Assembly: GCA_965225945.1 (NCBI GenBank) | Contig: CBDDBZ010000037.1 | Coordinates: 256,001-320,000 of the forward strand | Length of the DNA stretch: 64,000 nt | Source: Alphaproteobacteria bacterium | GTDB taxonomy: Bacteria > Pseudomonadota > Alphaproteobacteria > GCA-2731375 | Direction of reading: 5' to 3' | Shown: positions 1,900 to 57,349 of the stretch, in pieces | Layout: every line of letters starts with the position of its first letter | Numbering within the stretch: position 1 is the stretch's first letter | Position numbers and translations under genes: made by a program | Notes under the pieces: generated by a model | What the model was told of the DNA's origin: nothing | Seen by the model: only the letters and a program-made list of their open reading frames with translations | Databases searched by the model: none

Positions 1900-2471
1900 C
1901 GCTGTCGTGCGTCGTCGAGCTGAAGGTTGCCGGCATCGCCGCCGAGGCGGCGGAGCAGCACGGTCGCCTGGCCGGCCGGCTCTCGTGGTCGCCGAGCCCG
2001 AGGGCTACTGGGCCGGGACCCTCCCCCACCGGAGGGCCGGAAGGTGGCTCTCCGGGCTCCGGAGCGTGGCCGAGGGCCTGTCCGTGGAGGTGCACCTGAT
2101 CGCGCCGCGCGGCGGCGGCCAGCCCGACCGACTCACGGGCGACCAGCTTTCTGTCCGGCGGGGGCCGTTGGCCGGCTCCATGACCAGACATTCGATGCCG
2201 CGTTGTTCGAGCAACCGCACCAGCCAGAAGCCGTCGTAGCCTGCCTCGTCGCAGAGGACCACCTTTGGCACCTGACCCGAGACGTTGGCCAGGCGGTCCC
2301 GCACCGCATCGAGCTTGGCGATCAGGCCGTCGGCGTCGCCGCCCCTGATTGGATGCAAGCTCGGATTGTCCCGGCCCGGAGACTGGAGCGCCAAAAGCCA
2401 ACTGTTCTTGCCCAGCTCAAGGGCAGCATGGAGAGTTTGTTCGCCGCACGTGGTCGTAGGGGGCGTCATCA
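1900..2471 (-). pseudogene. Degraded IS110-family transposase (different from the 2705 element)
   Basis: HAALELGKNSWLLA...VVLCDEAGYDGFWLVRLLEQRGIECLVMEPA (DEDD domain start), then the frame breaks down. Confidence 0.8.
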
Positions 2472-2704
2472 TAGCATCTCGCTCCTTCTGATAGCGGTTG
2501 AACCAATCGAAGGAGCTTGAAGCCGCATCCCTCGGCCTCATAGCATCTGGGGTATAATCCCCGTGCTGGCGAATCGGTTGGTTAGGGGACTTGTAGACCC
2601 TATGTCCGTTGAGGTTTCGACGCCGGGACCAGGTGTCCGCCTCAGCATGTAGTTTCGAGGGTTGCACGCGTTTGCGTGCCTATCCTCATACATGGGAGAC
2701 GGAC

Positions 2705-5245
2705 ATGACGGACGATATCACCTTTGTTGGCTTGGATGTTTCGAAGGAGACGATTTCGGTCGGGATCGCGCCGGGTGATCCGCGAGAGGCGGTTCATTAT
2801 TTCGGCACCATCGTGTACCGACCGACGGCGCTCTATTCGCTCTGCAAGAAGCTGTCGCGGGACGGCGCGCGTCTTCACTTCTGCTATGAGGCTGGCCCGT
2901 TCGGCTATTCCCTGCATCGCCGGCTTTTGGACTGGGGCCACACCTGCGATGTGGTGGCGCCCTCGCTGATCCCCAAGCGGCCCGGTGACCGGGTCAAGAC
3001 GGACCGGCGGGACGCGCTGAGCCTGGCTTCGTTGTTGCGTGCCGGACAGTTGACCGCGGTCAAGTCCGGATTCTGCTGGGAATTTTCTCCGGGGTTGCCT
3101 CCGTCGAGGCCTGTTCTGGTAGTTCCAGCTGGGCTTGGTATTCCTGATCGAGTTCCTTCCTGACGGCGTCCATCTGGCGCCGCTCGAAGACGGTGACCTT
3201 GACTGCTTTCCATCGCTCGGCGGCGCGGCTCATGGCACCGAACATGAGCTTCAGTACCGCCTTTTCGCCGAAGGCGTTGGGGATGATCTTCAAGCGCCGG
3301 CGCTCCTCCCCGAACAATCTCTCCAGCAGGTTGGTGGTGCGGATCGCCCGGCGGTGATTGACCGGCATGCGCAGGTGCGCGATGCAGGCCTCGAAATCAT
3401 CCAGGAAACAGGCCACCGCCGAGGGCAGCTCGCGCTCCCAGTCACGCACCACGCCCTCGGCCAGATCGCGGGCGATGGCGCGCGAGGGGGCCTGGTAGGC
3501 CGCTTGGGCGCGGGCCTTGAACTCCGGCCAGAGATCCTCGGGCACCTTCGCCGCCAAGTTCCTCATCCGGTGCGCGAGGCAGCGTTGGCGCGCGCTCCTG
3601 GGAAAACAAATCTCGATCGCCTTGATAATGCCAGGCGCGCCGTCGGAGGCGATCAGGAGAGGATCGCCCAGGCCTCGGCTGCGCATGTCCTGGAAGAACG
3701 CGGAGACGGTCTCGTTGTCCTCCTTCGAGCCCGCCATCAGATGCAGGAGAACCTTCTTGCCCTCGAGCGTGAAGCCCCAGGCCGCCAGCACCGGCTCTCG
3801 CCTCTGCCCGGCCCGCAGCCGCTCGGCGATGCCGTCGACGAAGAGGTAGGCGATCTCGAACTCGCTAAGGTCGCGCTTGGCGAAGCCGAGGTAGTCCGCC
3901 CAGAGCCGCTCCCCCATCTCCGAGACCGCCGTGCGCGACAGCAGCAAGCGCCCACTTTCTTCCCTGAAGGCATCTTCGATGTCGCGCACCGAGAGACCGC
4001 GCGCCAGCATCTCCACGGCTAAATCCTCCAGGCCCTCGGAATGACCCTTCAGCTGCGCTCGCAGATCCGAACGGAACGGTTCGTCCGTCCCGGCGACCTG
4101 CGGCGCCGCATACCTGATCCGCCCCTCGGCCGTCTTCAGATGACCTTCGCGCGAACCGTTCCGGTAACCTCGGCCAGGCTCGGAACCGTGCTCGTAATAG
4201 TCCCGGCCCAGGGCGTCGCGCACCTCGGCCTCCAAGCCTTCCTCGATGATTAACCGCGTCGCCAACCGCACCAATTCACTCTTCGCGTCGACCACGCGGG
4301 CGCGCCCTTCGATCAGGTCGTTCAAGGCTTCACGCGTGCGCTCGCTTCCGGGTAGTCTCTTCGTCATGGAGGTGCCTCCTGTGCTGGGCTGGCGCGCAGC
4401 CATGCCCGGGTGGGAATCGACACCTCGAAGGATGCACCTCCTACCAAATTCCCAGCAAGTCTAGGACTTCACCGTTGACCGCGGTCTGGGTGCCCGACGC
4501 GAGCCACGAGGCGGTTCGCGCGCTGGTGCGCCTGCGCCACCTGGCGGCGGGCGACGTGCGCCGGGCCAAGCAGCAGATCCTGGGCTTCTGCCTGATGCAT
4601 GATCGGGTGTATCGGGCGGGTACGACGCATTGGACGAAGACCCACCGGAACTGGCTGGTGGATCAGAAGTTCGAGCACGGCGCTCTGGCGCTGACCTATT
4701 CGGAATTGCTTGGCCGTCTCGAACGGGCGGAAGAGATGCTGGCGCGAGCGCGCCTGGAGTTGCGGGAACACCTTGGCGGCTGGGCCTTGTATCCGGTCAT
4801 GGACGCCCTTCAGGCGTTACGCGGCTTCGATTGGGAGAATGCCGCCATGGTCGCGGCGGAGATCGGCGACTTCCAGCGCTTCCCCACGGCGGGCCATCTG
4901 ATGGCCTACGTCGGCTTGGTGCCGTCGGAATATTCCAGCGGTGATCGACGCAAGCGGGGCAAGATCACCAAGTCGGGCAACGCCATGGTTCGCCGTGTCC
5001 TGGTGGAGGCAGCCTGGACCTATCGTCACCCGGCGCGCCAGTCGAGCCCGATCCGCGCCCGTTCAGCCCATCTGCCGGAGCCGATCCGCGACAAGGCCTG
5101 GCAGGCGCAGATACGATTGTGTCGTCGCATGCGCGATCTGCGCGGGCGCGGCAAACACCAGAACACCGTGCTGACCGCGGTGGCCCGGGAGCTGGCGGGG
5201 CACGTCTGGGCCATCGCCCGCATGGTGCCCCCGCCGATGGCATAA
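2705..5245 (+). pseudogene. IS110 DEDD recombinase split by IS256 insertion
   Basis: GLDVSK, CYEAG, KTDRRDA and EYSSG motifs; the frame LRAGQLTAV|WVPD resumes after the IS256. Confidence 0.92.
3058..4473 (-). mobile_element. IS256-family element type A, copy 1 (transposase 3060-4403)
   Basis: IRs GGTGAAGTCC..GCTGGGAATTT / GGTCAAGTCC..GCTGGGAATTT; 9-bp TSD GTTGACCGC; FVDG, ASDG, QRC and TTNLLER motifs; 1416 bp. Confidence 0.96.
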
Positions 5246-5275
5246 ATCGCCGCGCGCCGAGCGGCGAATACCAAC

Positions 5276-5478
5276 ACGCCCGCTTGCGTGGGCAGCGGCG
5301 GTGGCGGCCACTTGGGGAACTCCCGTTCCTTGGCTATGGGCAGGATTGCATCCGATGCCCGTCTGTAGAGTCAGGACAGCCCCATCGGACATAGGGACAT
5401 GCGGTAGTCGATCCGCGGATAAGAGCTTGATGGACCGTCGATCAAAGCCGTCCCGCCGCTGCCTTCCAAAGCGGGCGT
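5276..5478 (+). ncRNA. Putative IS110 bridge RNA
   Basis: Outer stems 5276-5285/5469-5478 and 5291-5301/5453-5463 enclose two internal loops whose strands match target flanks and element ends (see findings). Confidence 0.72.
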
Positions 5479-5606
5479 CAGATACCCAGCACCCGGTGAC
5501 GAGCCGGGTGAAAGGCCGCGTTCGTGCTTGACAGGGGAGAGGACATAAGAGCCAAGAATCGTCGGTAAGAGCTTTCTAATATATGAGAGGTTCAGAGCCG
5601 CTGACT

Positions 5607-5686
5607 GGCTACTCCGGCACTCCGTCGGCTTCGCCAGACTTCGTGCATGTCTGAGAGCACGCAGCGCAAACTGGCAGCGATCATCC
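5607..5686 (+). pseudogene. 5' stub (40-nt leader + MSESTQRKLAAII) of a class III cyclase/TPR gene
   Basis: RKLAAI N-terminal signature; leader homologous to 56435-56474 and 51584-51623. Confidence 0.75.
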
Positions 5687-5785
5687 TCGACGGTTTGAGA
5701 GAGCTACCGTTTCGCATCAGGCTCCGGATTGCCATCGAGAGCCCGAATGGCTACTCTGATGGCCGGAAACTGCGGAGGCGAGGGC

Positions 5786-6787
5786 ATGGTCGAGACCACG
5801 GTCGGCGTCGATCTGAGCCGAGGCGACGCACCCCCCGCGACACCGATCGTCGAGCCGCCAGTCTTCGTCTGGCCGCCCCGACCGGTCGCAATGTTCAAGT
5901 TCCTGTTCGCCATACCGGGCTACTTCCTGCCCTTCAACATCATCTACATGGGCCTCGCCGTCCTGACCTGGTTCGCCCTCACGCCCGAGCTCTCGCGCAT
6001 GACGACGTTCCAGTGGGACTGGATCGCCATCGTCTACGGCCGGAACCTCGGCCTAACTTTCCTGGTCTTCGGCGGCCTGCACCTTCGTTTCTACATGCTG
6101 AAATCGCAAGGTACCCGCTACATGCTGAACCGGCGGGAGCCGACGGCCGCGCATCGCCGCTTCCTGTTTGGCAACCAGGTCCGCGAGAACGTCTTTTGGA
6201 CCGCGGTGAGCGGCGTCGGCGTCTGGACCGCCTACGAGGTCGTGACGCTCTGGGCTTTCGCCAACGGCTATATCCCGATGCTGAGCTGGGAGGCGCATCC
6301 GATTTACTTCGTGCTGCTGTTCTGCGCCATTCCAATAATCCGCGACGCCTACTCTTATTTCGTGCATCGCCTGCTGCACTACCGCTTCCTCTACAAGTCG
6401 GTGCACGCGCTGCACCACAAGAACGTCGACATCGGTCCCTGGTCGGGCATGTCGATGCACCCGGTCGAGCACGTCCTCTACTTTGGCGGTGTGCTACCGC
6501 ACTGGATCCTGCTGTCCCATCCGCTGCATGCGATCTTCCACGTACAGCAGGCCGGCCTGGCGCCGGCGCTGGGCCACTTGGGCTTCCACAGGCTGCTGAC
6601 GAAGGGCGAGAACGAGTACTCGATCGGTCAGCGCTATTTCCACTATCTGCATCACCGTTATTTCGAGTGTAACTACGGCGGTGACGGCACGGTGCCACTC
6701 GACAAGTGGTTCGGCAGCTGGCACGACGGCACGCCGGAAAGCCACGAAATCATGCGCGCCCGGCGCAAGAAGGCCCACGGCATCTGA
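5786..6787 (+). CDS. Sterol desaturase / fatty acid hydroxylase family protein
   Basis: His boxes HRLLH, HALHH and HYLHH; hydrophobic segments; GGAGG RBS. Confidence 0.9.
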   Translation: MVETTVGVDLSRGDAPPATPIVEPPVFVWPPRPVAMFKFLFAIPGYFLPFNIIYMGLAVLTWFALTPELSRMTTFQWDWIAIVYGRNLGLTFLVFGGLHLRFYMLKSQGTRYMLNRREPTAAHRRFLFGNQVRENVFWTAVSGVGVWTAYEVVTLWAFANGYIPMLSWEAHPIYFVLLFCAIPIIRDAYSYFVHRLLHYRFLYKSVHALHHKNVDIGPWSGMSMHPVEHVLYFGGVLPHWILLSHPLHAIFHVQQAGLAPALGHLGFHRLLTKGENEYSIGQRYFHYLHHRYFECNYGGDGTVPLDKWFGSWHDGTPESHEIMRARRKKAHGI

Positions 6788-50824: not shown

Positions 50825-51583
50825 TCACTCTACGTCAAAAATCCCATCAAGAATCTTGACCAAGATCCCGGCCGCGATAAGAAGGGCGATCACCCAAGGG
50901 GTAGAGCCGGCAGGCTGTCCGGACTCGGAGCCGGGTAGCTGCGCCGTCGGGACCGGCTTGGGATTGACGACCTCAATAATACTTTTGCTTCTTTCGCGCG
51001 CAGCGCTGGTCGGTAACCAACGCCAGACCCGGAGCGGAGTGACGATGTTCTTCAATTCGTGGGCGCCGTCGTCAGCAAATGAGACATCCAGTTTGTCATG
51101 AACTTGGCCGCGCACGATATCGGAGATGGCAATGCCGCCCGGCTCCGCGATTTCCTGCATCCCCGCAGCGACGTTCACGCCGTCGCCGTAAATGTCGTCG
51201 CCATCGACGATGACCTCGCCGATGTTGATTCCGACGCGAAGCAGCATCCGGCGATCATCGGGTAGAGTGGCGTTACGACGAAGCAGGGGTAGAGCGGTGT
51301 CTCGATCGACCATGCCGGACTGAACGGCGACACTGGCTTCCACTGCCGCGACGGCGCTCGCGAACTCCACCAGAATACTATCGCCTGCGCCACCGACCAC
51401 TCGACCGCCCAACCGTTCTATCGTTGGAGTCCATAGCTCTTCTATCGTTGGAGTCCATAGTTCGCGACGAAGCATCTTCATGGCCGCGAGTGTGCCGGTT
51501 TCGCCCTCCCCCATGAAACGCGAATATCTGACCATGTCGGCGGATACGATCGCCGCCAATCTTCGTCGTGGACGTGACGACAT
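50825..51583 (-). CDS. Class III adenylate/guanylate cyclase domain + C-terminal TM helix (degenerate)
   Basis: RRLAAIVSADMVRYSRFM, AGDS, RVGINIGEV, DIYGDGVNVAA and LKNI motifs. Confidence 0.88.
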   Translation of the reverse strand: MSSRPRRRLAAIVSADMVRYSRFMGEGETGTLAAMKMLRRELWTPTIEELWTPTIERLGGRVVGGAGDSILVEFASAVAAVEASVAVQSGMVDRDTALPLLRRNATLPDDRRMLLRVGINIGEVIVDGDDIYGDGVNVAAGMQEIAEPGGIAISDIVRGQVHDKLDVSFADDGAHELKNIVTPLRVWRWLPTSAARERSKSIIEVVNPKPVPTAQLPGSESGQPAGSTPWVIALLIAAGILVKILDGIFDVE

Positions 51584-51680
51584 GGTTCAAGTCTACCGGA
51601 ACTCGCGAGCAGTAGGAACAGCAATCTCAGTTCTTCGAGACGCGTGAATGCATTAGGGACAGCTAAACGGCAACTCTTGG

Positions 51681-52895
51681 CTCTTATGTCCTCTCCCCTG
51701 TCAAGCACGAACGCGGCCTTTCACCCGGCTCGTCACCGGGTGCTGGGTATCTGACGCCCGCTTTGGAAGGCAGCGGCGGGACGGCTTTGATCGACGGTCC
51801 ATCAAGCTCTTATCCGCGGATCGACTACCGCATGTCCCTATGTCCGATGGGGCTGTCCTGACTCTACAGACGGGCATCGGATGCAATCCTGCCCATAGCC
51901 AAGGAACGGGAGTTCCCCAAGTGGCCGCCACCGCCGCTGCCCACGCAAGCGGGCGTGTTGGTATTCGCCGCTCGGCGCGCGGCGATTTATGCCATCGGCG
52001 GGGGCACCATGCGGGCGATGGCCCAGACGTGCCCCGCCAGCTCCCGGGCCACCGCGGTCAGCACGGTGTTCTGGTGTTTGCCGCGCCCGCGCAGATCGCG
52101 CATGCGACGACACAATCGTATCTGCGCCTGCCAGGCCTTGTCGCGGATCGGCTCCGGCAGATGGGCTGAACGGGCGCGGATCGGGCTCGACTGGCGCGCC
52201 GGGTGACGATAGGTCCAGGCTGCCTCCACCAGGACACGGCGAACCATGGCGTTGCCCGACTTGGTGATCTTGCCCCGCTTGCGTCGATCACCGCTGGAAT
52301 ATTCCGACGGCACCAAGCCGACGTAGGCCATCAGATGGCCCGCCGTGGGGAAGCGCTGGAAGTCGCCGATCTCCGCCGCGACCATGGCGGCATTCTCCCA
52401 ATCGAAGCCGCGTAACGCCTGAAGGGCGTCCATGACCGGATACAAGGCCCAGCCGCCAAGGTGTTCCCGCAACTCCAGGCGCGCTCGCGCCAGCATCTCT
52501 TCCGCCCGTTCGAGACGGCCAAGCAATTCCGAATAGGTCAGCGCCAGAGCGCCGTGCTCGAACTTCTGATCCACCAGCCAGTTCCGGTGGGTCTTCGTCC
52601 AATGCGTCGTACCCGCCCGATACACCCGATCATGCATCAGGCAGAAGCCCAGGATCTGCTGCTTGGCCCGGCGCACGTCGCCCGCCGCCAGGTGGCGCAG
52701 GCGCACCAGCGCGCGAACCGCCTCGTGGCTCGCGTCGGGCACCCAGACCGCGGTCAACTGTCCGGCACGCAACAACGAAGCCAGGCTCAGCGCGTCCCGC
52801 CGGTCCGTCTTGACCCGGTCACCGGGCCGCTTGGGGATCAGCGAGGGCGCCACCACATCGCAGGTGTGGCCCCAGTCCAAAAGCCGGCGATGCAG
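51681..52895 (-). mobile_element. IS110-family element, copy 2, 5'-truncated (partial recombinase to 51987; bridge-RNA region ~51754-51956)
   Basis: Reverse complement of copy 1 without the IS256; CC core at 51679-51680. Confidence 0.93.
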
Positions 52896-54696
52896 GGAGC
52901 GCGCGTTCAACCGGCGCTTCGTGCAGATGTGTGGCCACTACCTGGTCGAACCGACAGCATGCACGCCGGGAGCGGGATGGGAGAAGGGGCAGGTCGAGAA
53001 CCAGGTCGGGATCATCCGCGGTCGGTTCTTCACCCCGCGGCTGCGCTTCAAGACCTACGACGAGCTCAACGCCTGGCTCTTGGACCAGTGCGTCGCCTAC
53101 GCCCGGCGTCATCCCCACCCGGTGTTCAAGGACAGGACTGTCTGGCAGGTGTTCGAGGACGAGCGTCCGTCCCTGGTCGGCTATCGCGGGCCGTTCGACG
53201 GCTTCCACGCGGTCCCGGCGTCGGTGTCGAAGACCTGCCTGGTGCGCTTCGACAGCAACAAGTACAGCGTGGCGGCGCGCGCCGTCGGCCGTCCGGTCGA
53301 GGTCCATGCCTACGCCGATCGCATCGTCATCCGCCAGGACGGCGAGATCGTCGCCGAGCATGCCCGGCGCTTCGGCCGCGACCAGACCGTCTATGACCCG
53401 TGGCACTACGTGCCCGTGCTGGCGAGGAAGCCCGGTGCGCTTCGTAACGGCGCGCCGTTCAAGGACTGGGCGCTGCCCGGCGCCCTGGGTCGCGTGCGCG
53501 TCCGGCTCGCCGGCCACGACGACGGCGACAGGCAGATGGTCGAGATCCTCACCGCCGTGCTGGCGGATGGGCTGGCGGCGGTGGAGGCCGCCTGTGCCGA
53601 GGCGCTCGCTGGCGGCGTGTGCAGCGCCGACGTCGTGCTCAACATCCTCAATCGTCGGCGCCAGCCGTCCGAGACGGCGCCGATCCCGACGCCCGCGAAC
53701 CTGCGTCTTCGCTTTGAGCCGGTGGCCGATTGCACCCGCTACGACCGCTTGAGGGGGGTCGGCCATGGAGCGCCATGAGGTCCTGGAGATGATGGCCGCA
53801 CTCAAGCTCGCCGGCATGCGCGACGCGTTCGACGAGGTGCTCGCCGACGGCCTCAAGCGCCAGCATCCGATGCAGCGAATCATCGGCGAGCTGTTGAAGG
53901 CCGAGATCGCCGACAAGCAGGCGCGATCCATCAAGTACCAGATGAGTGGCGCCAAGCTGCCGCTGGCCAAGGAGCTGGCCGACTTCGACTTCACCGACAC
54001 CCCGGTCAACGAGCCGCTGGTCCGCGAGTTGGCGGTCGGCGGCTTCCTGGCCAACCAGCGCAACGCCGTGCTGATCGGCGGCACCGGCACCGGCAAGAGC
54101 CATCTCGCCGTCGCCATCGCGCGGGCCTGCATCCGCGATGGCGCCCGGGGCCGCTTCTTCAACGTCGTCGACCTGGTCAACCGGCTCGAGGCCGAAGCCC
54201 GCGCCGGCCGCCAGGGCCGGCTCGCCGATCAGCTGGCCCGGCGCGACCTCGTCATCCTCGACGAGCTCGGCTACCTGCCCTTCGCCCAAACCGGAGGCCA
54301 GCTGCTGTTCCACCTCGTCAGCCGGCTCTACGAGCGCACCTCGATCATCGTCACCACCAACCTGACCTTCGGCGAATGGCCGTCCGTCTTCGGCGACGCC
54401 AAGATGACCACCGCGCTCCTCGATCGTCTGACGCACCACTGCGAGATCATCGAGACCGGAAACGACTCCTGGCGCTTCAAGAATCGGTCCTAAAGGCAAC
54501 CGATCCACCTGCCGCCCGGTCGCCCAGGTGGGCCCACAGGAACCTCCCACGCGCGGTCCGCCGCCAGCCGCGTGGTGGGCGCGTCGGCCCGCGCGCGGGC
54601 CCCTCCTATGGACTACCTGTACGACCTCCGCCGTGCATCCCCAAAGGGGTCAACATTGCACGCCGATAGGGGGTCAATGTTCAACGCCGATTGACA
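52896..54696 (+). mobile_element. IS21-family element, copy 2; istA 5'-truncated (to 53778)
   Basis: Reverse complement of 46085-47885; ends ATTGACA. Confidence 0.93.
53765..54493 (+). CDS. istB: IS21 helper ATPase
   Basis: Same protein as 46288-47016. Confidence 0.96.
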
Positions 54697-54817: not shown

Positions 54818-55194
54818 TGAACCGAGTGTCCGAAGCTCGGATTTCCGGATGACTCCGGTCGCGGGTGGTCGACACCTGGTTTGTCGTGTTATGACCCATT
54901 TTCACCGTCCGCAACCGCTTAAGGCTCTGGTTCAGAGGCCGTCATCGAGCATCATTTGGATTATGGGCGCCAAAGCGGCCGGCTCGTTGAGAGTGCGATT
55001 CCGACCGGAGGTTACTTCGGCACCGTCCTCCATCCCGTCGCCGTCATCGAGGCGGTCGCCAATTCAGCTTGCCGGCCGAACACGCCCTTCTCGGAGCCAG
55101 CTGGCCTGTCGACGAACTGGCGGAGGAGATGGCCTGCTGGCAGGTTGGGCACAGGGATGGCAGACTTTCCCAATACTTGCCCAAGGAAAAGCAG

Positions 55195-56397
55195 ATGTCT
55201 GCCAAGCTCCTCTCGCCCTTCGTTCTTCGCGGGGTCACCTTGCCCAACCGGATGGTCGTCTCGCCGATGCAGATGTACATGACCGGACCGGACGGACGTT
55301 ACACCGACTGGCACATGGTCCATCTGGGGAAGTACGCCATCGCACGTTTTGGCACCGTCTTCACGGAGGTGTTATGCGTGGAGCCGCGCGGCCGCAGCAC
55401 CTATTCCGACGCTGGCATCTGGTCCGACGATCATATCCTGCCCTTGAAGCGCGTCGCCGACTTCATCCGGGCACAGGGCTCGGTGCCCGCCGCACAGATC
55501 GGGCATTGCGGGCCCAAGGCGTCGCGCCAGCGCCCCTTCGAGGGGTTGCAGCCGCTTGGCCCCACGGATAACGCGCGTGGTGAGCCGCCGTGGCAAGCGG
55601 TAAGCGCCACCGCCGAGGCCTCGGCGCCGGGCTATCAGACTCCACATGCTCTGACCATTCCCGAAATCGAAGCGCTTGTGGCGGCCTTCGGCGAGGCCGC
55701 GCGACGCTGCGACGAGGCCGGTTTCGATGTGCTCGACGTGCACGCGGCGCACGGCTATCTCATCCATTCCTTTCTTTCGCCGATCGGCAACAGGCGCACC
55801 GATGCCTATGGCGAGGACCGCGCTGGGCGCAACCGGTTCGCGCTCGAGATCGCCGAAGCGCTGCGCCGTAACTGGCCGGAGGACAAGCCGATCCTGTTCC
55901 GTCTCTCCTGTATCGATCGGGTGGAAGGCGGGCTAGAGATCGAAGATACGGTGGCGTTGGCCCGAGAACTGCAGTCGCGCGGCATCGATGCCATCGACTG
56001 CTCGTCGGGCGGCATCAAGGGCCCGAATTCGCTCTTCAGCCTTGCCGCCAAGGGGCCGCCCTCGCCGGGTTTCCAGGTTCCGCTGGCCTATGCGGTCAGG
56101 CAAGGCACCGAAATGCCGACCATGGCGATCGGTATGATTGTGGACCCGCACCATGCTGAAAAGATCTTGCGGGACGGAAAGGCGGATCTCATCGCCATCG
56201 CTCGCGAGGCGCTCTTCAATCCGCACTGGGCCCTGCATGCGGCCCACGTGCTCAGCGAGGAGCTGACCTTCGATGCTTGGCCACCCAACATGGGCTGGTG
56301 GTTGGAGGTTCGCCAACGCATGTTGACATCAAGCGACCCGAAGGACTGGCGGATCGGTCCAGCGGCCGCAAACGCGCCCATACGAGCGACCGATTGA
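55195..56397 (+). CDS. NADH:flavin oxidoreductase (old yellow enzyme, YqjM-like)
   Basis: NRMVVSPM, QIGHCG.KAS, HAAHGYLIHSFLSP..NRRTDAYG motifs; AAGGA RBS. Confidence 0.95.
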   Translation: MSAKLLSPFVLRGVTLPNRMVVSPMQMYMTGPDGRYTDWHMVHLGKYAIARFGTVFTEVLCVEPRGRSTYSDAGIWSDDHILPLKRVADFIRAQGSVPAAQIGHCGPKASRQRPFEGLQPLGPTDNARGEPPWQAVSATAEASAPGYQTPHALTIPEIEALVAAFGEAARRCDEAGFDVLDVHAAHGYLIHSFLSPIGNRRTDAYGEDRAGRNRFALEIAEALRRNWPEDKPILFRLSCIDRVEGGLEIEDTVALARELQSRGIDAIDCSSGGIKGPNSLFSLAAKGPPSPGFQVPLAYAVRQGTEMPTMAIGMIVDPHHAEKILRDGKADLIAIAREALFNPHWALHAAHVLSEELTFDAWPPNMGWWLEVRQRMLTSSDPKDWRIGPAAANAPIRATD

Positions 56398-56410
56398 GGT
56401 CGTGGTCACA

Positions 56411-56474
56411 TCTGCGCTGTGTGACCTCGGACATGGTTGAAGTCTAGCGAAGCCGGTGAGGTGCAGGAATAGCC
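56411..56474 (-). pseudogene. 5' stub (40-nt leader + MSEVTQRR) of a cyclase/TPR gene
   Basis: Gap-free alignment with 5607-5668. Confidence 0.75.
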
Positions 56475-57349
56475 TGTGGCTCGTCAGAACCCCATCTGCC
56501 GCAGAAATCATAGCGTTTCCGGCCACTGCCGACTACCGTCGTCGGCATGCAAGCGACCATCATGATTCTCTCCACCACGCTGCGCGAGACCTTCCTCAGC
56601 CGCGCGTCGCTACACCTGCAAAACCTCGCCCTCCGCCAGCAGGTGGCAATCCTGAAGCGGGAAAGGCGACGGCCGCGGCTCCAGACGCTCGACCGCTTGT
56701 TCTGGGTCATCCTTTCCCGCCTTTGGCCGCGCTGGCGCGAGGTGCTGGTGATCGTAAGGCCGGAAACCGTCATCGGCTGGCACCGGAGGGGATTTCGTGC
56801 ATTCTGGACCTGGAAATCCAGGCGCGGCAAACCAGGACGGCCTCCGGTGCCCAAGGATGTCCGCGAACTCATCCGTCGAATGTGTCGGGAGAACCCCTTG
56901 TGGGGCGCTCCTCGCATCCACGGCGAACTCATGAAGCTGGGAATCGAGGCATCGGGGGCGACGGTATCGAGGTACATGGCGCGGCATCGAAAGCCACCGT
57001 CGCAGACGTGGCGGACGTTCCTCGACAACCACGTCGGCTGCCTCGTCTCGGCCGATTTCTCTGTGGTGCCGACGGCCACGTTCGCCGTTCTGTTCGTCTT
57101 CATCGTGCTGCGCCACGAACGGCGGCGCATCGAGCACGTCGGTGTTACAGCACACCCGACCACGGCGTGGGTGGCGCAGCAGATCCGCGAGGTCTTTCCG
57201 TGGGACACGGCACCACGGTATATCATGCGTGATCGGGACGGGGCGTACGGTCAGAAGTTTCGGGAGCGGTTGAAGGCGATGGGCATCGAGGAGGTTGTGA
57301 CGGCGCCGCGAAGCCCATGGCAAAATCCGTTCGTCGAAAGGGCAATCGG

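What the first reader, a model, noticed from the sequence alone, without database searches (positions are those of the whole stretch)
2575..5647. Both IS110 copies target a conserved site ~95 nt upstream of cyclase-type genes
Seen: the copy 1 core ends 93 nt before the ATG of MSESTQRKLAAII (5647); the copy 2 core lies 95 nt before the ATG of MSSRPRRRLAAIV (51583). The spacers are diverged but alignable (AAGA.T.G.CG.T.AG...CTAAT..AT...CTGA), so these look like independent insertions into paralogous sites. The rebuilt empty site is loosely palindromic (TTAGGGGAC...GTCCCTAA when the two loci are combined). Known: IS1111-type elements often target ends or recombination sites of other mobile units (attC, Tn21 IRs, REPs). 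Inference: the target marks a repeated, unrecognised site belonging to the cyclase module.
Basis: partly seen in the sequence, partly recalled or inferred. Interest (0 to 1): 0.72.

Follow-up and report, generated by a model that had tools for sequence, protein, structure and literature searches.

The report
RNA-guided IS targets a genomic repeat
Two copies of one jumping gene sit about 95 bases upstream of cyclase-type gene starts because its own guide RNA steers it into a short repeated sequence that often, but far from always, lies in front of one family of cyclase genes.

Summary
Both elements are copies of one 1.53-kb IS1111-type (IS110-family) insertion sequence. Copy 1 is split by an IS256-like element. 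Copy 2 is cut short at its 5' end. The genome holds seven copies or fragments. All six readable left junctions fall at the same position of an interspersed repeat of about 100 nt, between TAG and CCA, and all in one orientation. This repeat has 53 hits in the genome and was found only in this genus. Empty sites exist, including an 85%-identical paralogue of the copy 2 site. The long 3' non-coding end has the bridge/seekRNA layout. One segment is antisense to TAG|CCAAGG and another matches the left flank. In 47 relatives the homologous segments covary with their own flanks. The cyclase link is partial. Three of four readable right flanks lead to an MSExTQRRLAAIV-type start at 95, 97 and 238 nt, but two of those starts are short remnants. 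The copy 1 "cyclase" is 13 codons long, and the real downstream gene is a fatty-acid hydroxylase. The repeat lies upstream of 9 of 19 loci with this cyclase leader, but only about 5 of 53 repeat copies adjoin a cyclase start. IS91-type elements use the same spot. This is a new member of a known kind.

The parts
2545..2596 (+). Left half of the target repeat at copy 1. It ends with the left target plus the core, TGTAG (2592-2596).
   Evidence: an HMM built only from 12 natural uninterrupted repeat copies hits C37:258545-258596 (E 4.9e-5). The hit ends at HMM position 68, as do the other five IS left flanks. Sequence.
2597..5551 (+). IS1111-type IS110-family element, copy 1. It comprises IS part 1 (2597-3061), a foreign IS256-like insertion, and IS part 2 (4474-5551).
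   Evidence: exact prefix of 469 nt and exact suffix of 1078 nt of the intact copy, with a 13-nt overlap; the intact ORF carries PF01548 and PF02371.
2705..3061 (+). 5' part of the recombinase gene (starts MTDDITF). It continues at 4475-5245.
3062..4473 (-). IS256-like element inserted into copy 1 (transposase ORF 3060-4403). It is not part of the IS110 element.
   Evidence: PF00872, 206.8 bits; about 10 near-identical copies elsewhere in the genome; insertion boundaries.
5246..5551 (+). 306-nt right non-coding end that encodes the predicted bridge/seek RNA.
   Evidence: The layout is conserved in relatives, and their guide segments covary with their flanks.
5328..5336 (+). Right target guide CCTTGGCTA. 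It is antisense to the top strand TAG|CCAAGG of the target.
   Evidence: One search gives the position, a 9-nt antisense match to a natural empty site, and 16 of 2000 shuffles reaching 9 nt. One search shows covariation at the homologous position in relatives.
5361..5368 (+). Left target guide GTCTGTAG. It has the same sense as the left flank plus the core (..TGTAG at copy 1).
5387..5396 (+). Donor guide GGACATAGGG. It is antisense to the IS left end CCCTATGTCC (2598-2607).
   Evidence: the reverse complement is found at 2598..
5399..5425 (+). Conserved hairpin ATGCGGTA..CCGCG, followed by the donor guide GATAAGAG, which matches the IS right terminus ..ATAAGAG.
   Evidence: in 50 of 53 hairpins found, the 7-mer after the hairpin recurs as a candidate IS terminus. 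It changes together with the terminus across groups (ATAAGAG, ATCAGAG, ATATCAG).
5552..5646 (+). Right half of the target repeat (CCAAGA...TTCTAAT), followed by the conserved cyclase-type leader (..CCAGACTTCGTGC before the ATG).
5647..5685 (+). 13-codon remnant of an MSExTQRRLAAIV-type cyclase start.
   Evidence: (no Pfam family for the long ORF).
5729..6787 (+). Fatty-acid hydroxylase family gene, the real gene downstream of copy 1.
   Evidence: PF04116, 70.2 bits.
51681..52898 (-). IS copy 2. It lacks its first ~316 nt and is joined directly to the interior of an IS21 istA gene. Its guide segments are at 51896-51904, 51864-51871, 51836-51845 and 51807-51814.
51584..51680 (-). Right half of the target repeat plus the cyclase leader at copy 2 (97 nt).
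   Evidence: It is 85/98 identical to the unoccupied paralogue C31:62686-62589.
50825..51583 (-). Short cyclase-type ORF (252 aa, starts MSSRPRRRLAAIV) with an internal tandem ELWTPTIE duplication.
   Evidence: PF00211, 26.9 bits.

Best explanation
Both elements are copies of one IS1111-group (IS110-family) insertion sequence of about 1.53 kb. It has a DEDD recombinase gene, a 108-nt left end and a 306-nt right end. The right end encodes a bridge/seek RNA. One loop of that RNA carries a segment antisense to the target top strand (5'-CCUUGGCUA, read against TAG|CCAAGG) and a segment identical to the left flank plus the core (..UGUAG). A second loop carries segments that match the two ends of the IS itself. 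The recombinase-RNA complex therefore inserts the excised IS, in one orientation, between TAG and CCA. That sequence is a conserved spot in an interspersed repeat of about 100 nt, found only in this genus among the genomes searched. The cyclase proximity is secondary. A variant of this repeat lies about 95 nt upstream of the start codon of a paralogous family of class III cyclase genes (MSExTQRRLAAIV) that share a leader. Some of the many possible landing sites therefore precede cyclase genes or their truncated remnants. Shown here: copy identity, junctions, repeat family, empty sites, guide complementarity, and guide-flank covariation in relatives. Inferred: that the RNA is made and guides insertion in this organism, and why insertion is confined to the repeat.
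For: Family. The intact ORF has PF01548 and PF02371. The left end is short and the right end long (108 against 306 nt), which is the IS1111 arrangement (passages of PMC11208160 and of PMC11187229).

One site. There are 7 copies or fragments. All 6 readable left junctions end at the same HMM position (68) of a repeat model built from 12 uninterrupted copies that are not IS flanks (E from 1.4e-13 to 4.9e-5). All 4 readable right junctions begin with CCA. The orientation is the same in all.

Empty sites read ..GATAGCCAAGAG... An unoccupied paralogue of the copy 2 site is 85/98 identical to it.

Guides. There is a 9-nt antisense match across the insertion point; 16 of 2000 shuffles reach 9 nt. The donor-guide segments match both IS ends.

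Relatives. In 47 distinct relatives, the 6 nt at the homologous guide position match the right flank at 210 of 282 positions, against a permuted mean of 91.6 (0 of 5000 permutations as high). In 33 relatives the left guide matches the left flank at 101 of 198 positions, against 63.4 (0 of 5000). The donor guide changes together with the IS terminus. The consensus fold of 20 sequences has 25 pairs, 14 of them with compensatory changes.

Order of segments. [quoted passage not shown]

Sister species. A 77%-identical IS has its right junction ..GATAAGAG|CCAAGACACGACATTCC..CTAATG in the same repeat type.
Against: The natural sites fit the guides only partly. Scoring the flanks by hand against the guides, the right flank matches at 3 to 5 of 6 positions and the left flank at 2 to 3 of 6 beyond the core; itself scored only the copy at C37:331457 (3/6 and 2/6). 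About 100 other [AG]TAGCCAA sites in the genome, most of them outside the repeat, carry no copy. Pairing alone therefore does not explain why all insertions lie in the repeat. No Rfam family matches the right end. No direct evidence of the RNA exists: RNA-library contigs from one study cover 5278-5462 and 5303-5485, but the tool warns that such libraries can hold DNA. The subterminal inverted repeat is only 6-7 bp, against the usual 11-13. The relatives used for covariation are related to one another, so the permutation figures overstate independence. The guide positions in the relatives were set by regular expressions of my own; the first version was wrong and was corrected.
Confidence: 0.8

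Rival explanations
1. One reading: the target is a site that belongs to a cyclase gene module, so the IS is in effect specific for cyclase upstream regions.
For: Three of 4 readable right flanks lead to an MSExTQRRLAAIV-type start at 95, 97 and 238 nt. The repeat is upstream of 9 of 19 leader-family loci. From a density of 53 copies in 6.27 Mb I expect about 0.5. The sister-species copy also has the leader downstream. The left guide ..UGUAG fits the xGTAG variants seen at cyclase-linked sites better than the GATAG of the canonical repeat.
Against: About 48 of 53 repeat hits have no cyclase-type start downstream. Of 33 first-pass sites, 29 are more than 3 kb from any PF00211 match or on a contig without one. 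The left-end fragments at C34 and at C19/C33 sit in the canonical repeat, which at C34 directly follows a resolvase-gene 3' end. The copy at C37:331457 lies 3' of a cyclase and upstream of an acyl-CoA-dehydrogenase-like gene. Ten of the 19 leader-family loci show no repeat hit; one of these is copy 2, whose left flank is lost.
Confidence: 0.1
2. The repeat is the terminus or attachment site of another mobile element. [quoted passage not shown]
For: At least four repeat copies directly follow the 3' end of a serine-recombinase (resolvase) gene (PF00239 and PF02796 for the one tested). Two IS91-type elements abut the same TAGCCA: type (ii) in 6 of 22 copies, type (iv) in 3 of 4. The end of type (iv) reads GCCAAGGCAC, which resembles the site. 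The repeat starts with GGGG and some variants end in ..CTTAGG about 38 nt on, which from memory resembles Tn3-family inverted repeats.
Against: The one inverted pair of repeat copies that I examined (8.3 kb apart) encloses no Tn3-type transposase. Repeat copies differ from one another by roughly 5-25% (77-99% identity among the hits), while the neighbouring ISs are near-identical, so the repeat is not part of the units that moved recently. Most copies stand alone between ordinary genes.
Confidence: 0.12
3. The two loci descend from one old segmental duplication that already carried the IS.
For: Both have the same order (IS, spacer, RRLAAI-type start) and spacers that can be aligned.
Against: The IS copies are 100% identical over 1218 nt, while the adjoining spacers are 57% identical. 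The copy 2 spacer is 85/98 identical to an unoccupied site on another contig. Contigs of another public run show the same IS end joined to three different flanks.
Confidence: 0.02

Closest known systems
IS1111-family insertion sequences with a seekRNA, such as ISEc11 and ISXne4 (Siddiquee et al. 2024, PMC11187229; abstract and passages read)
   Same: A DEDD transposase with a PF02371 C-terminal domain. The long non-coding region lies downstream of the gene. A short RNA segment complementary to the target top strand precedes a segment that matches the bottom strand. Specific sites are used in one orientation. Relatives are naturally redirected by changes in the guide segments.
   Different: The protein is at most 56% identical to any relative found. 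No DNA match above 80% identity was found among plasmid records. The subterminal inverted repeat is only 6-7 bp. The target is a genus-restricted interspersed repeat. Nothing has been tested experimentally. ISfinder could not be consulted.
IS621 and the bridge RNA of the IS110 group (Durrant et al. 2024, PMC11208160; passages read)
   Same: There are two loops, one for the target and one for the donor. Each has one guide for each strand, and the guides overlap at a core dinucleotide. Here the core is AG.
   Different: In IS621 the RNA lies in the left end and the bottom-strand guide comes first. Here the RNA lies in the right end and the order is reversed, as in the IS1111 group.
ISPpu9 of Pseudomonas putida KT2440 (PMC12288879; only the abstract in the search listing was seen)
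   Same: An IS110-family element whose copies lie in a repeated extragenic sequence, with a small-RNA gene downstream of the transposase gene.
   Different: Its target is a palindromic REP. The repeat here shows no excess folding (z = 0.10) and is often joined to a cyclase gene leader.
[quoted passage not shown]
   Same: IS1111-family elements that insert at one fixed position of a repeated sequence, in one orientation.
   Different: No transposon bounded by the repeat was found here.

Membership tests
IS110 family, IS1111 group | DEDD (RuvC-like) N-terminal domain plus the PF02371 C-terminal domain | tested here: met
   PF01548 at 46.5 bits and PF02371 at 77.2 bits, on the intact 403-aa ORF (L001:2017-3228).
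IS110 family, IS1111 group | The long non-coding region lies downstream of the transposase gene, and the left end is short | tested here: met
   the left end is 108 nt (2597-2704) and the right end 306 nt (5246-5551). The rule is from passages.
IS110 family, IS1111 group | Subterminal inverted repeats, usually 11-13 bp, with extensions of 7 bp on the left and 3 bp on the right | tested here: inconclusive
   By eye. With the core AG counted on the left, the 7/3 spacing gives ATGTCC/GGACAT, which is only 6 bp (7 bp with another register). Relatives at 43-56% identity have GGTCAATACAT, 11 bp, with the 7/3 spacing.
IS110 family, IS1111 group | The RNA in the non-coding region has a top-strand complement followed by a bottom-strand match to the target, overlapping at the insertion point | tested here: met
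   CCTTGGCTA at 5328 comes before GTCTGTAG at 5361, and both include the core AG; covariation in 47 relatives (right flank) and 33 relatives (left flank). One search gives the rule.
IS110 family, IS1111 group | Site-specific and orientation-specific insertion without a target duplication beyond the shared core | tested here: met
   6 of 6 left junctions are at the same repeat position, 4 of 4 right junctions begin with CCA, and only AG is shared by the target and the IS end.
IS110 family, IS1111 group | The RNA is made, binds the transposase and is needed for movement; a circular intermediate exists | not testable with these tools
   The only hint is that RNA-library contigs from one study cover 5278-5462 and 5303-5485. 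The tool warns that this does not show transcription.
REP/BIME-type repetitive extragenic palindromes | Short, extragenic and present in many copies | tested here: met
   53 hits at E <= 0.01; they lie between genes; found in 3 of 41 genomes searched, all of one genus.
REP/BIME-type repetitive extragenic palindromes | An imperfect palindrome able to form a stable stem-loop | tested here: not met
   a canonical copy folds at -14.1 kcal/mol against a shuffle mean of -14.35 (z = 0.10). The apparent GGCTATC/GATAGCC pairing is not kept in other copies (by eye).
Terminal inverted repeat of a Tn3/Tn21-type transposon (the target class of IS4321/IS5075) | Pairs of inverted copies that bound a transposase-bearing element | tested here: not met
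   the one inverted pair examined (C38:258461 and C38:266762) encloses IS4-like and IS630-like genes, an amidase and other genes. These names are my reading of the translations and were not tested. No Tn3-type transposase was recognised. Only this pair was examined.
Class III adenylate/guanylate cyclase (the genes downstream of the two copies) | PF00211 catalytic domain | tested here: inconclusive
   the copy 2 ORF has a partial match (26.9 bits, profile positions 96-169). The copy 1 ORF at 5647-6672 has none and keeps only 13 cyclase-like codons.

The most novel reading that the evidence does not exclude
The repeat, the ~60-nt leader (GTTCC..N..CTAGACT, 6-7 nt before the ATG, which looks like a promoter for a leaderless mRNA) and the first codons of the MSExTQRRLAAIV cyclases together form a 5' module that gets copied. 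It now stands in front of at least 19 loci. About ten of these are stumps cut within the first 8-35 codons, and three or four stumps lie just upstream of unrelated genes in the same orientation (fatty-acid hydroxylase at copy 1, a GFA-like gene, an SDR-like gene). On this reading the module spreads a promoter. Its TAGCCA spot serves as a shared safe landing pad, used by two unrelated kinds of element: the bridge-RNA IS and IS91-type elements with a tyrosine recombinase.
Probability: 0.15. Interest if true: 0.6.

Novelty: new member of a known kind. Interest (0 to 1): 0.4.

Why it matters
It gives a worked natural example of how an IS1111-type guide RNA explains a puzzling pattern of insertion sites. 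The apparent preference for cyclase genes reduces to a roughly 10-nt guide match inside a genus-specific repeat. The covariation set (47 relatives with their flanks) documents natural retargeting in this branch of the family. Two questions stay open and can be tested. First, why does the IS occupy only repeat copies when about 100 other matching sites exist? The answer could be selection against insertions in genes, or some property of the repeat. Second, why does one cyclase paralogue family carry this repeat and leave so many short 5' stumps? For annotators there are two practical points: the ORF at 5647 is not a cyclase, and IS insertions here may cut cyclase genes off from upstream signals.

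Tried and rejected
An exact search with the last 25 nt of the IS found only the two window copies, because the other two right ends differ slightly. I then used coordinates from blastn instead.

Rfam, searched with permissive E-values, gave nothing for the IS or for three loci that hold the repeat (the one hit, mir-627 at E 0.07, is chance).

The idea that the repeat is a Tn3-like inverted repeat is unsupported. The one inverted pair examined encloses no such transposase.

The idea that it is a REP-like palindrome is unsupported (z = 0.10).

A tRNA-like stretch next to CTAATG at C39:83551 is not a tRNA gene by ARAGORN.

The left end of the sister-species copy could not be found. That copy is truncated at its 5' end and frameshifted, so its changed guides (CCUUGGCCA, UUUUAG) could not be checked against a left flank.

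My first regular expression for the right target guide picked the wrong place. It was replaced. One sequence (L012) got no anchor and was left out. Left junctions were found for only 33 of 48 distinct relatives.

The group II intron at TAGCCA at first looked like a further independent user of the site. In fact it sits at the end of IS91-type element (ii) wherever that element lies, so I do not count it.

Is C19/C33 the lost left half of copy 2? The fragments end at IS position ~325 and copy 2 starts at ~317, with a shared CCCTGCA. But the adjoining sequences differ: a 1.34-kb IS on one side and the interior of istA on the other. This is plausible but not shown.

From read laying: run X14 gave no contig over window 5558-5712, and the RNA-library contigs do not reach past 5485. 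Lack of cover proves nothing either way.

The plasmid search found only 60-80% identical pieces (202 records, none covering 80% of the query), so no named IS can be assigned.

Supplementary files of the papers were not opened. Supplementary tables of PMC11208160 and PMC11187229 may list related IS elements and their targets.

Searches for prior description were only. I did not search the literature for this repeat or for a link between cyclase leaders and IS elements, so I make no claim that it is not in print.
Full report
WHAT IS THERE. The window is C37:256001-320000 of a 6.27-Mb, 39-contig genome of about 66% G+C. Blastn of window 2400-5800 against the genome finds one IS110-family element at seven places:
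- Copy 1, window 2597-5551 (+).
- Copy 2, window 51681-52898 (-).
- Two intact copies, at C29:109784-111314 and at C37:331457-332996. The second lies 11 kb beyond the window.
- Three left-end fragments, at C19:8371-8697, C33:199207-199533 and C34:6820-8754. C19 and C33 have the same flanks and probably record one event.

The intact unit is 1534 nt from GTAG to AAGAG. Copy 1 is its exact first 469 nt plus its exact last 1078 nt. The two parts are separated by an IS256-like element (PF00872) and overlap by 13 nt. Copy 2 is 1218 nt, identical throughout, and is joined at IS position ~317 to the interior of an IS21 istA gene. The intact ORF has PF01548 (DEDD_Tnp_IS110) and PF02371. The left non-coding end is 108 nt and the right one 306 nt.

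THE OBSERVATION. The IS ends 95 nt (copy 1) and 97 nt (copy 2) before ATG codons that open MSESTQRKLAAII and MSSRPRRRLAAIV. The two spacers align with 58 identities in 101 columns (z = 3.7; 2 of 2000 shuffles as good). Identical IS copies in flanks that are 57% identical mean separate insertions. The copy 2 spacer is 85/98 identical to an unoccupied site upstream of another cyclase gene, C31:62588. That site reads TCG|CCA rather than TAG|CCA. However, the copy 1 ORF is a cyclase for only 13 codons. It matches no Pfam family, and the real gene is a fatty-acid hydroxylase at 5729-6787. The copy 2 ORF is a 252-aa weak PF00211 match.

THE TARGET. The flanks of all copies resemble one another on both sides. 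A first model seeded with the IS flanks found 33 sites at E < 0.01. To avoid circularity I built a second model from 12 natural uninterrupted copies only. It gives 53 hits at E <= 0.01. It hits all six IS left flanks, and each of those hits ends at model position 68. Uninterrupted copies read ..CCAATGTCGGC TATCGGGGGTAGACTCCCCGTCGGGCCGGGGTGGCCGATTCGGTCATT GATAGCCAAGAG nTGACATTcc..CTAATG. The IS lies between TAG and CCA. AG is shared by the target and the IS right end, so it is the core. The orientation is always the same.

The repeat matches nothing in Rfam. It folds no better than shuffles (z = 0.10). It was found in 3 of 41 genomes searched, all of one genus. A 77%-identical, truncated IS in a sister species has the right junction ..GATAAGAG|CCAAGACACGACATTCC..CTAATG, which is the same type of site. 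Contigs of a coded public run show this IS end running into the flanks of C37:331457, C29 and copy 2. Another run shows a slightly different copy running into CCA|TAAGCAG...

THE MECHANISM. The right end holds, in this order:
- CCTTGGCTA (5328-5336), antisense to TAG|CCAAGG.
- A hairpin.
- GTCTGTAG (5361-5368), the same sense as the left flank plus the core.
- GGACATAGGG (5387-5396), antisense to the IS left end CCCTATGTCC.
- A conserved hairpin ATGCGGTA..CCGCG.
- GATAAGAG (5418-5425), equal to the IS right terminus.

A 9-nt antisense match to a natural empty site occurs in 16 of 2000 shuffles of the right end.

The stronger test is comparative. A scan of public genomes gave 80 loci with relatives of the recombinase, 42-56% identical. 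The conserved hairpin occurs 53 times in the loci examined. In 50 of these the 7-mer after it recurs downstream as a candidate IS terminus, and it changes with the terminus between groups: ATAAGAG, ATCAGAG, ATATCAG. In 47 distinct relatives, the six bases at the position homologous to CCTTGG are the reverse complement of the first six flank bases at 210 of 282 positions. The permuted mean is 91.6, and 0 of 5000 permutations reach 210. In 33 relatives, the six bases before the AG of the left guide equal the left flank at 101 of 198 positions, against 63.4 (0 of 5000). These relatives are related to one another, so the figures are generous. The guide positions rest on my own anchors, which I corrected once. 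A consensus fold of 20 sequences keeps an outer stem and two loop-closing stems; 14 of 25 pairs show compensatory changes.

The layout agrees with published statements. IS1111 elements have long right ends that encode the RNA (PMC11208160, passages). [quoted passage not shown]

WHAT PAIRING DOES NOT EXPLAIN. There are 109 [AG]TAGCCAA sites in the genome. Four of them are the guide itself inside IS copies. About a dozen lie in the repeat: nine by my pattern and a few more by eye. Yet all six independent insertions are in the repeat, and the natural sites match the guides only partly. Either insertions elsewhere are lost because most other sites lie in genes, or the repeat contributes more than the ~10 nt core. 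I cannot tell which.

THE CYCLASE LINK. The genome has 63 PF00211 matches and 31 RRLAAI-type starts. A subset shares a conserved leader and start. A model from 11 of them finds 19 loci at E < 1e-7, of which 8 are not seeds. Nine of the 19 have a repeat hit within 3.5 kb upstream on the same strand. Four of these are strong hits (E <= 0.01): copy 1, C29:111569, C38:245853 and C31:136654. Three of these four are separated from the start by an inserted element. Copy 2 is not counted because its left flank is lost. From the repeat's density I expect about 0.5.

Seen from the other side, only about 5 of 53 repeat hits have a cyclase-type start downstream. Of the 33 first-pass sites, 4 lie within 3 kb of a PF00211 match. 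Other copies follow resolvase gene ends or precede unrelated genes. Of the four IS copies with a right flank, three precede a cyclase-type start (95, 97 and 238 nt), and two of those starts are stumps. The fourth lies about 2 kb downstream of the start of a frameshifted cyclase gene and upstream of an acyl-CoA-dehydrogenase-like gene.

The link is therefore real but partial. A variant of the repeat belongs to the 5' region of one cyclase paralogue family, and the left guide ..UGUAG fits the xGTAG variants found there. About ten of the 19 leader loci are stumps cut within the first 8-35 codons. One of them is simply interrupted by another IS, and three or four precede unrelated genes in the same orientation. 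I have no tested explanation for this pattern. It is the basis of the novel reading.

OTHER USERS OF THE SITE. Two IS91-type elements (tyrosine recombinase plus Y2_Tnp/Zn_Tnp_IS91) abut TAGCCA: type (ii) in 6 of 22 copies and type (iv) in 3 of 4. A group II intron (RVT_1 and GIIM) also appears there, but it sits at the end of type (ii) wherever that element lies, so it is not an independent user.

VERDICT. This is a new member of the IS1111 group with a repeat as its target. Its site choice is explained by its own guide RNA.

Noticed in passing
window 3062-4473: An IS256-like element (Mutator-family transposase, 3060-4403 on the minus strand) splits IS copy 1. The IS sequence overlaps by 13 nt across the insertion (GTTGACCGCGGTC). 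About ten near-identical copies lie elsewhere in the genome.
   Followed up: partly
window 52898-52910; C19:8371; C33:199533: Copy 2 begins at IS position ~317, joined to the interior of an IS21 istA gene. The left-end fragments on C19 and C33 stop at IS position ~325, next to a 1.34-kb multi-copy IS, and share CCCTGCA with copy 2. They may be the lost left half of copy 2 after rearrangement.
   Followed up: partly
window 56410-56475 (-): A further stump of the cyclase leader and start lies here (ATG at 56434, MSEVTQRR, then unrelated sequence). It is convergent with the flavin-oxidoreductase-like ORF at 55069-56397.
   Followed up: partly
C38:115389, C37:246053, C36:361118, C38:200287, C39:106040, C39:106168 and others: An IS91-type element (integrase plus Y2 transposase, ~22 copies) begins GAACGAAACC. 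It abuts TAGCCA of the repeat in 6 of 22 copies and GGGTCA-like sites in several others. Its other end lies ~100 nt upstream of three further cyclase genes (C34:78524, C36:264893, C26:88348).
   Followed up: partly
C9:30131, C38:209779, C36:320111, C39:98774: A group II intron (reverse transcriptase plus maturase) is inserted on the opposite strand, exactly at the left end of that IS91-type element. It therefore seems to home to the IS end.
   Followed up: partly
C29:111298-111331 (L001): The intact copy on C29 has a tandem duplication of the last ~17 nt of the IS, which gives two candidate right termini.
   Followed up: no
C37:329399-329433 and C37:331365-331399 (L002): A 35-nt direct repeat (34/35 identical) brackets a ~1.97-kb segment that holds a leader plus a frameshifted cyclase gene. 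The second copy is followed at once by the target repeat and an intact IS. This suggests duplication or cassette-like movement of the cyclase segment.
   Followed up: partly
upstream of ~19 loci, e.g. window 5600-5646 and 51584-51640: The conserved leader has GTTCC, then ~20 nt, then CTAGACT, ending 6-7 nt before the ATG. It looks like a promoter that would give a leaderless mRNA.
   Followed up: no
window 5714-5760: A ~40-nt motif (..TGCCATCGAGAGCCCGAATGG..) just upstream of the fatty-acid hydroxylase start recurs at more than ten other loci at 80-95% identity. Some of these lie ~80-100 nt downstream of a repeat copy.
   Followed up: no
window 51400-51450 (-): The copy 2 cyclase-type ORF has a tandem duplication (ELWTPTIE twice) and is 252 aa long, where full paralogues have ~590 aa. 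It may be decaying.
   Followed up: no
contigs C19 and C33: Long stretches of C19 and C33 are near-identical in opposite orientation, including the IS fragment and a cyclase stump. This is either a real duplication or a second strain in the assembly (contamination estimate 5.58%).
   Followed up: no
upstream of repeat copies at C29:102790, C24:61914, C33:276285, C31:17591 and C24:116042: A second repeat unit (..TCTCCGGTTAGCGCCTTCTAATGGA..GGGGGCACTCCTGACGTCGATTCGGCGAAACCCGACATTCGGC..) often precedes the target repeat. The units therefore form mosaic arrays.
   Followed up: no
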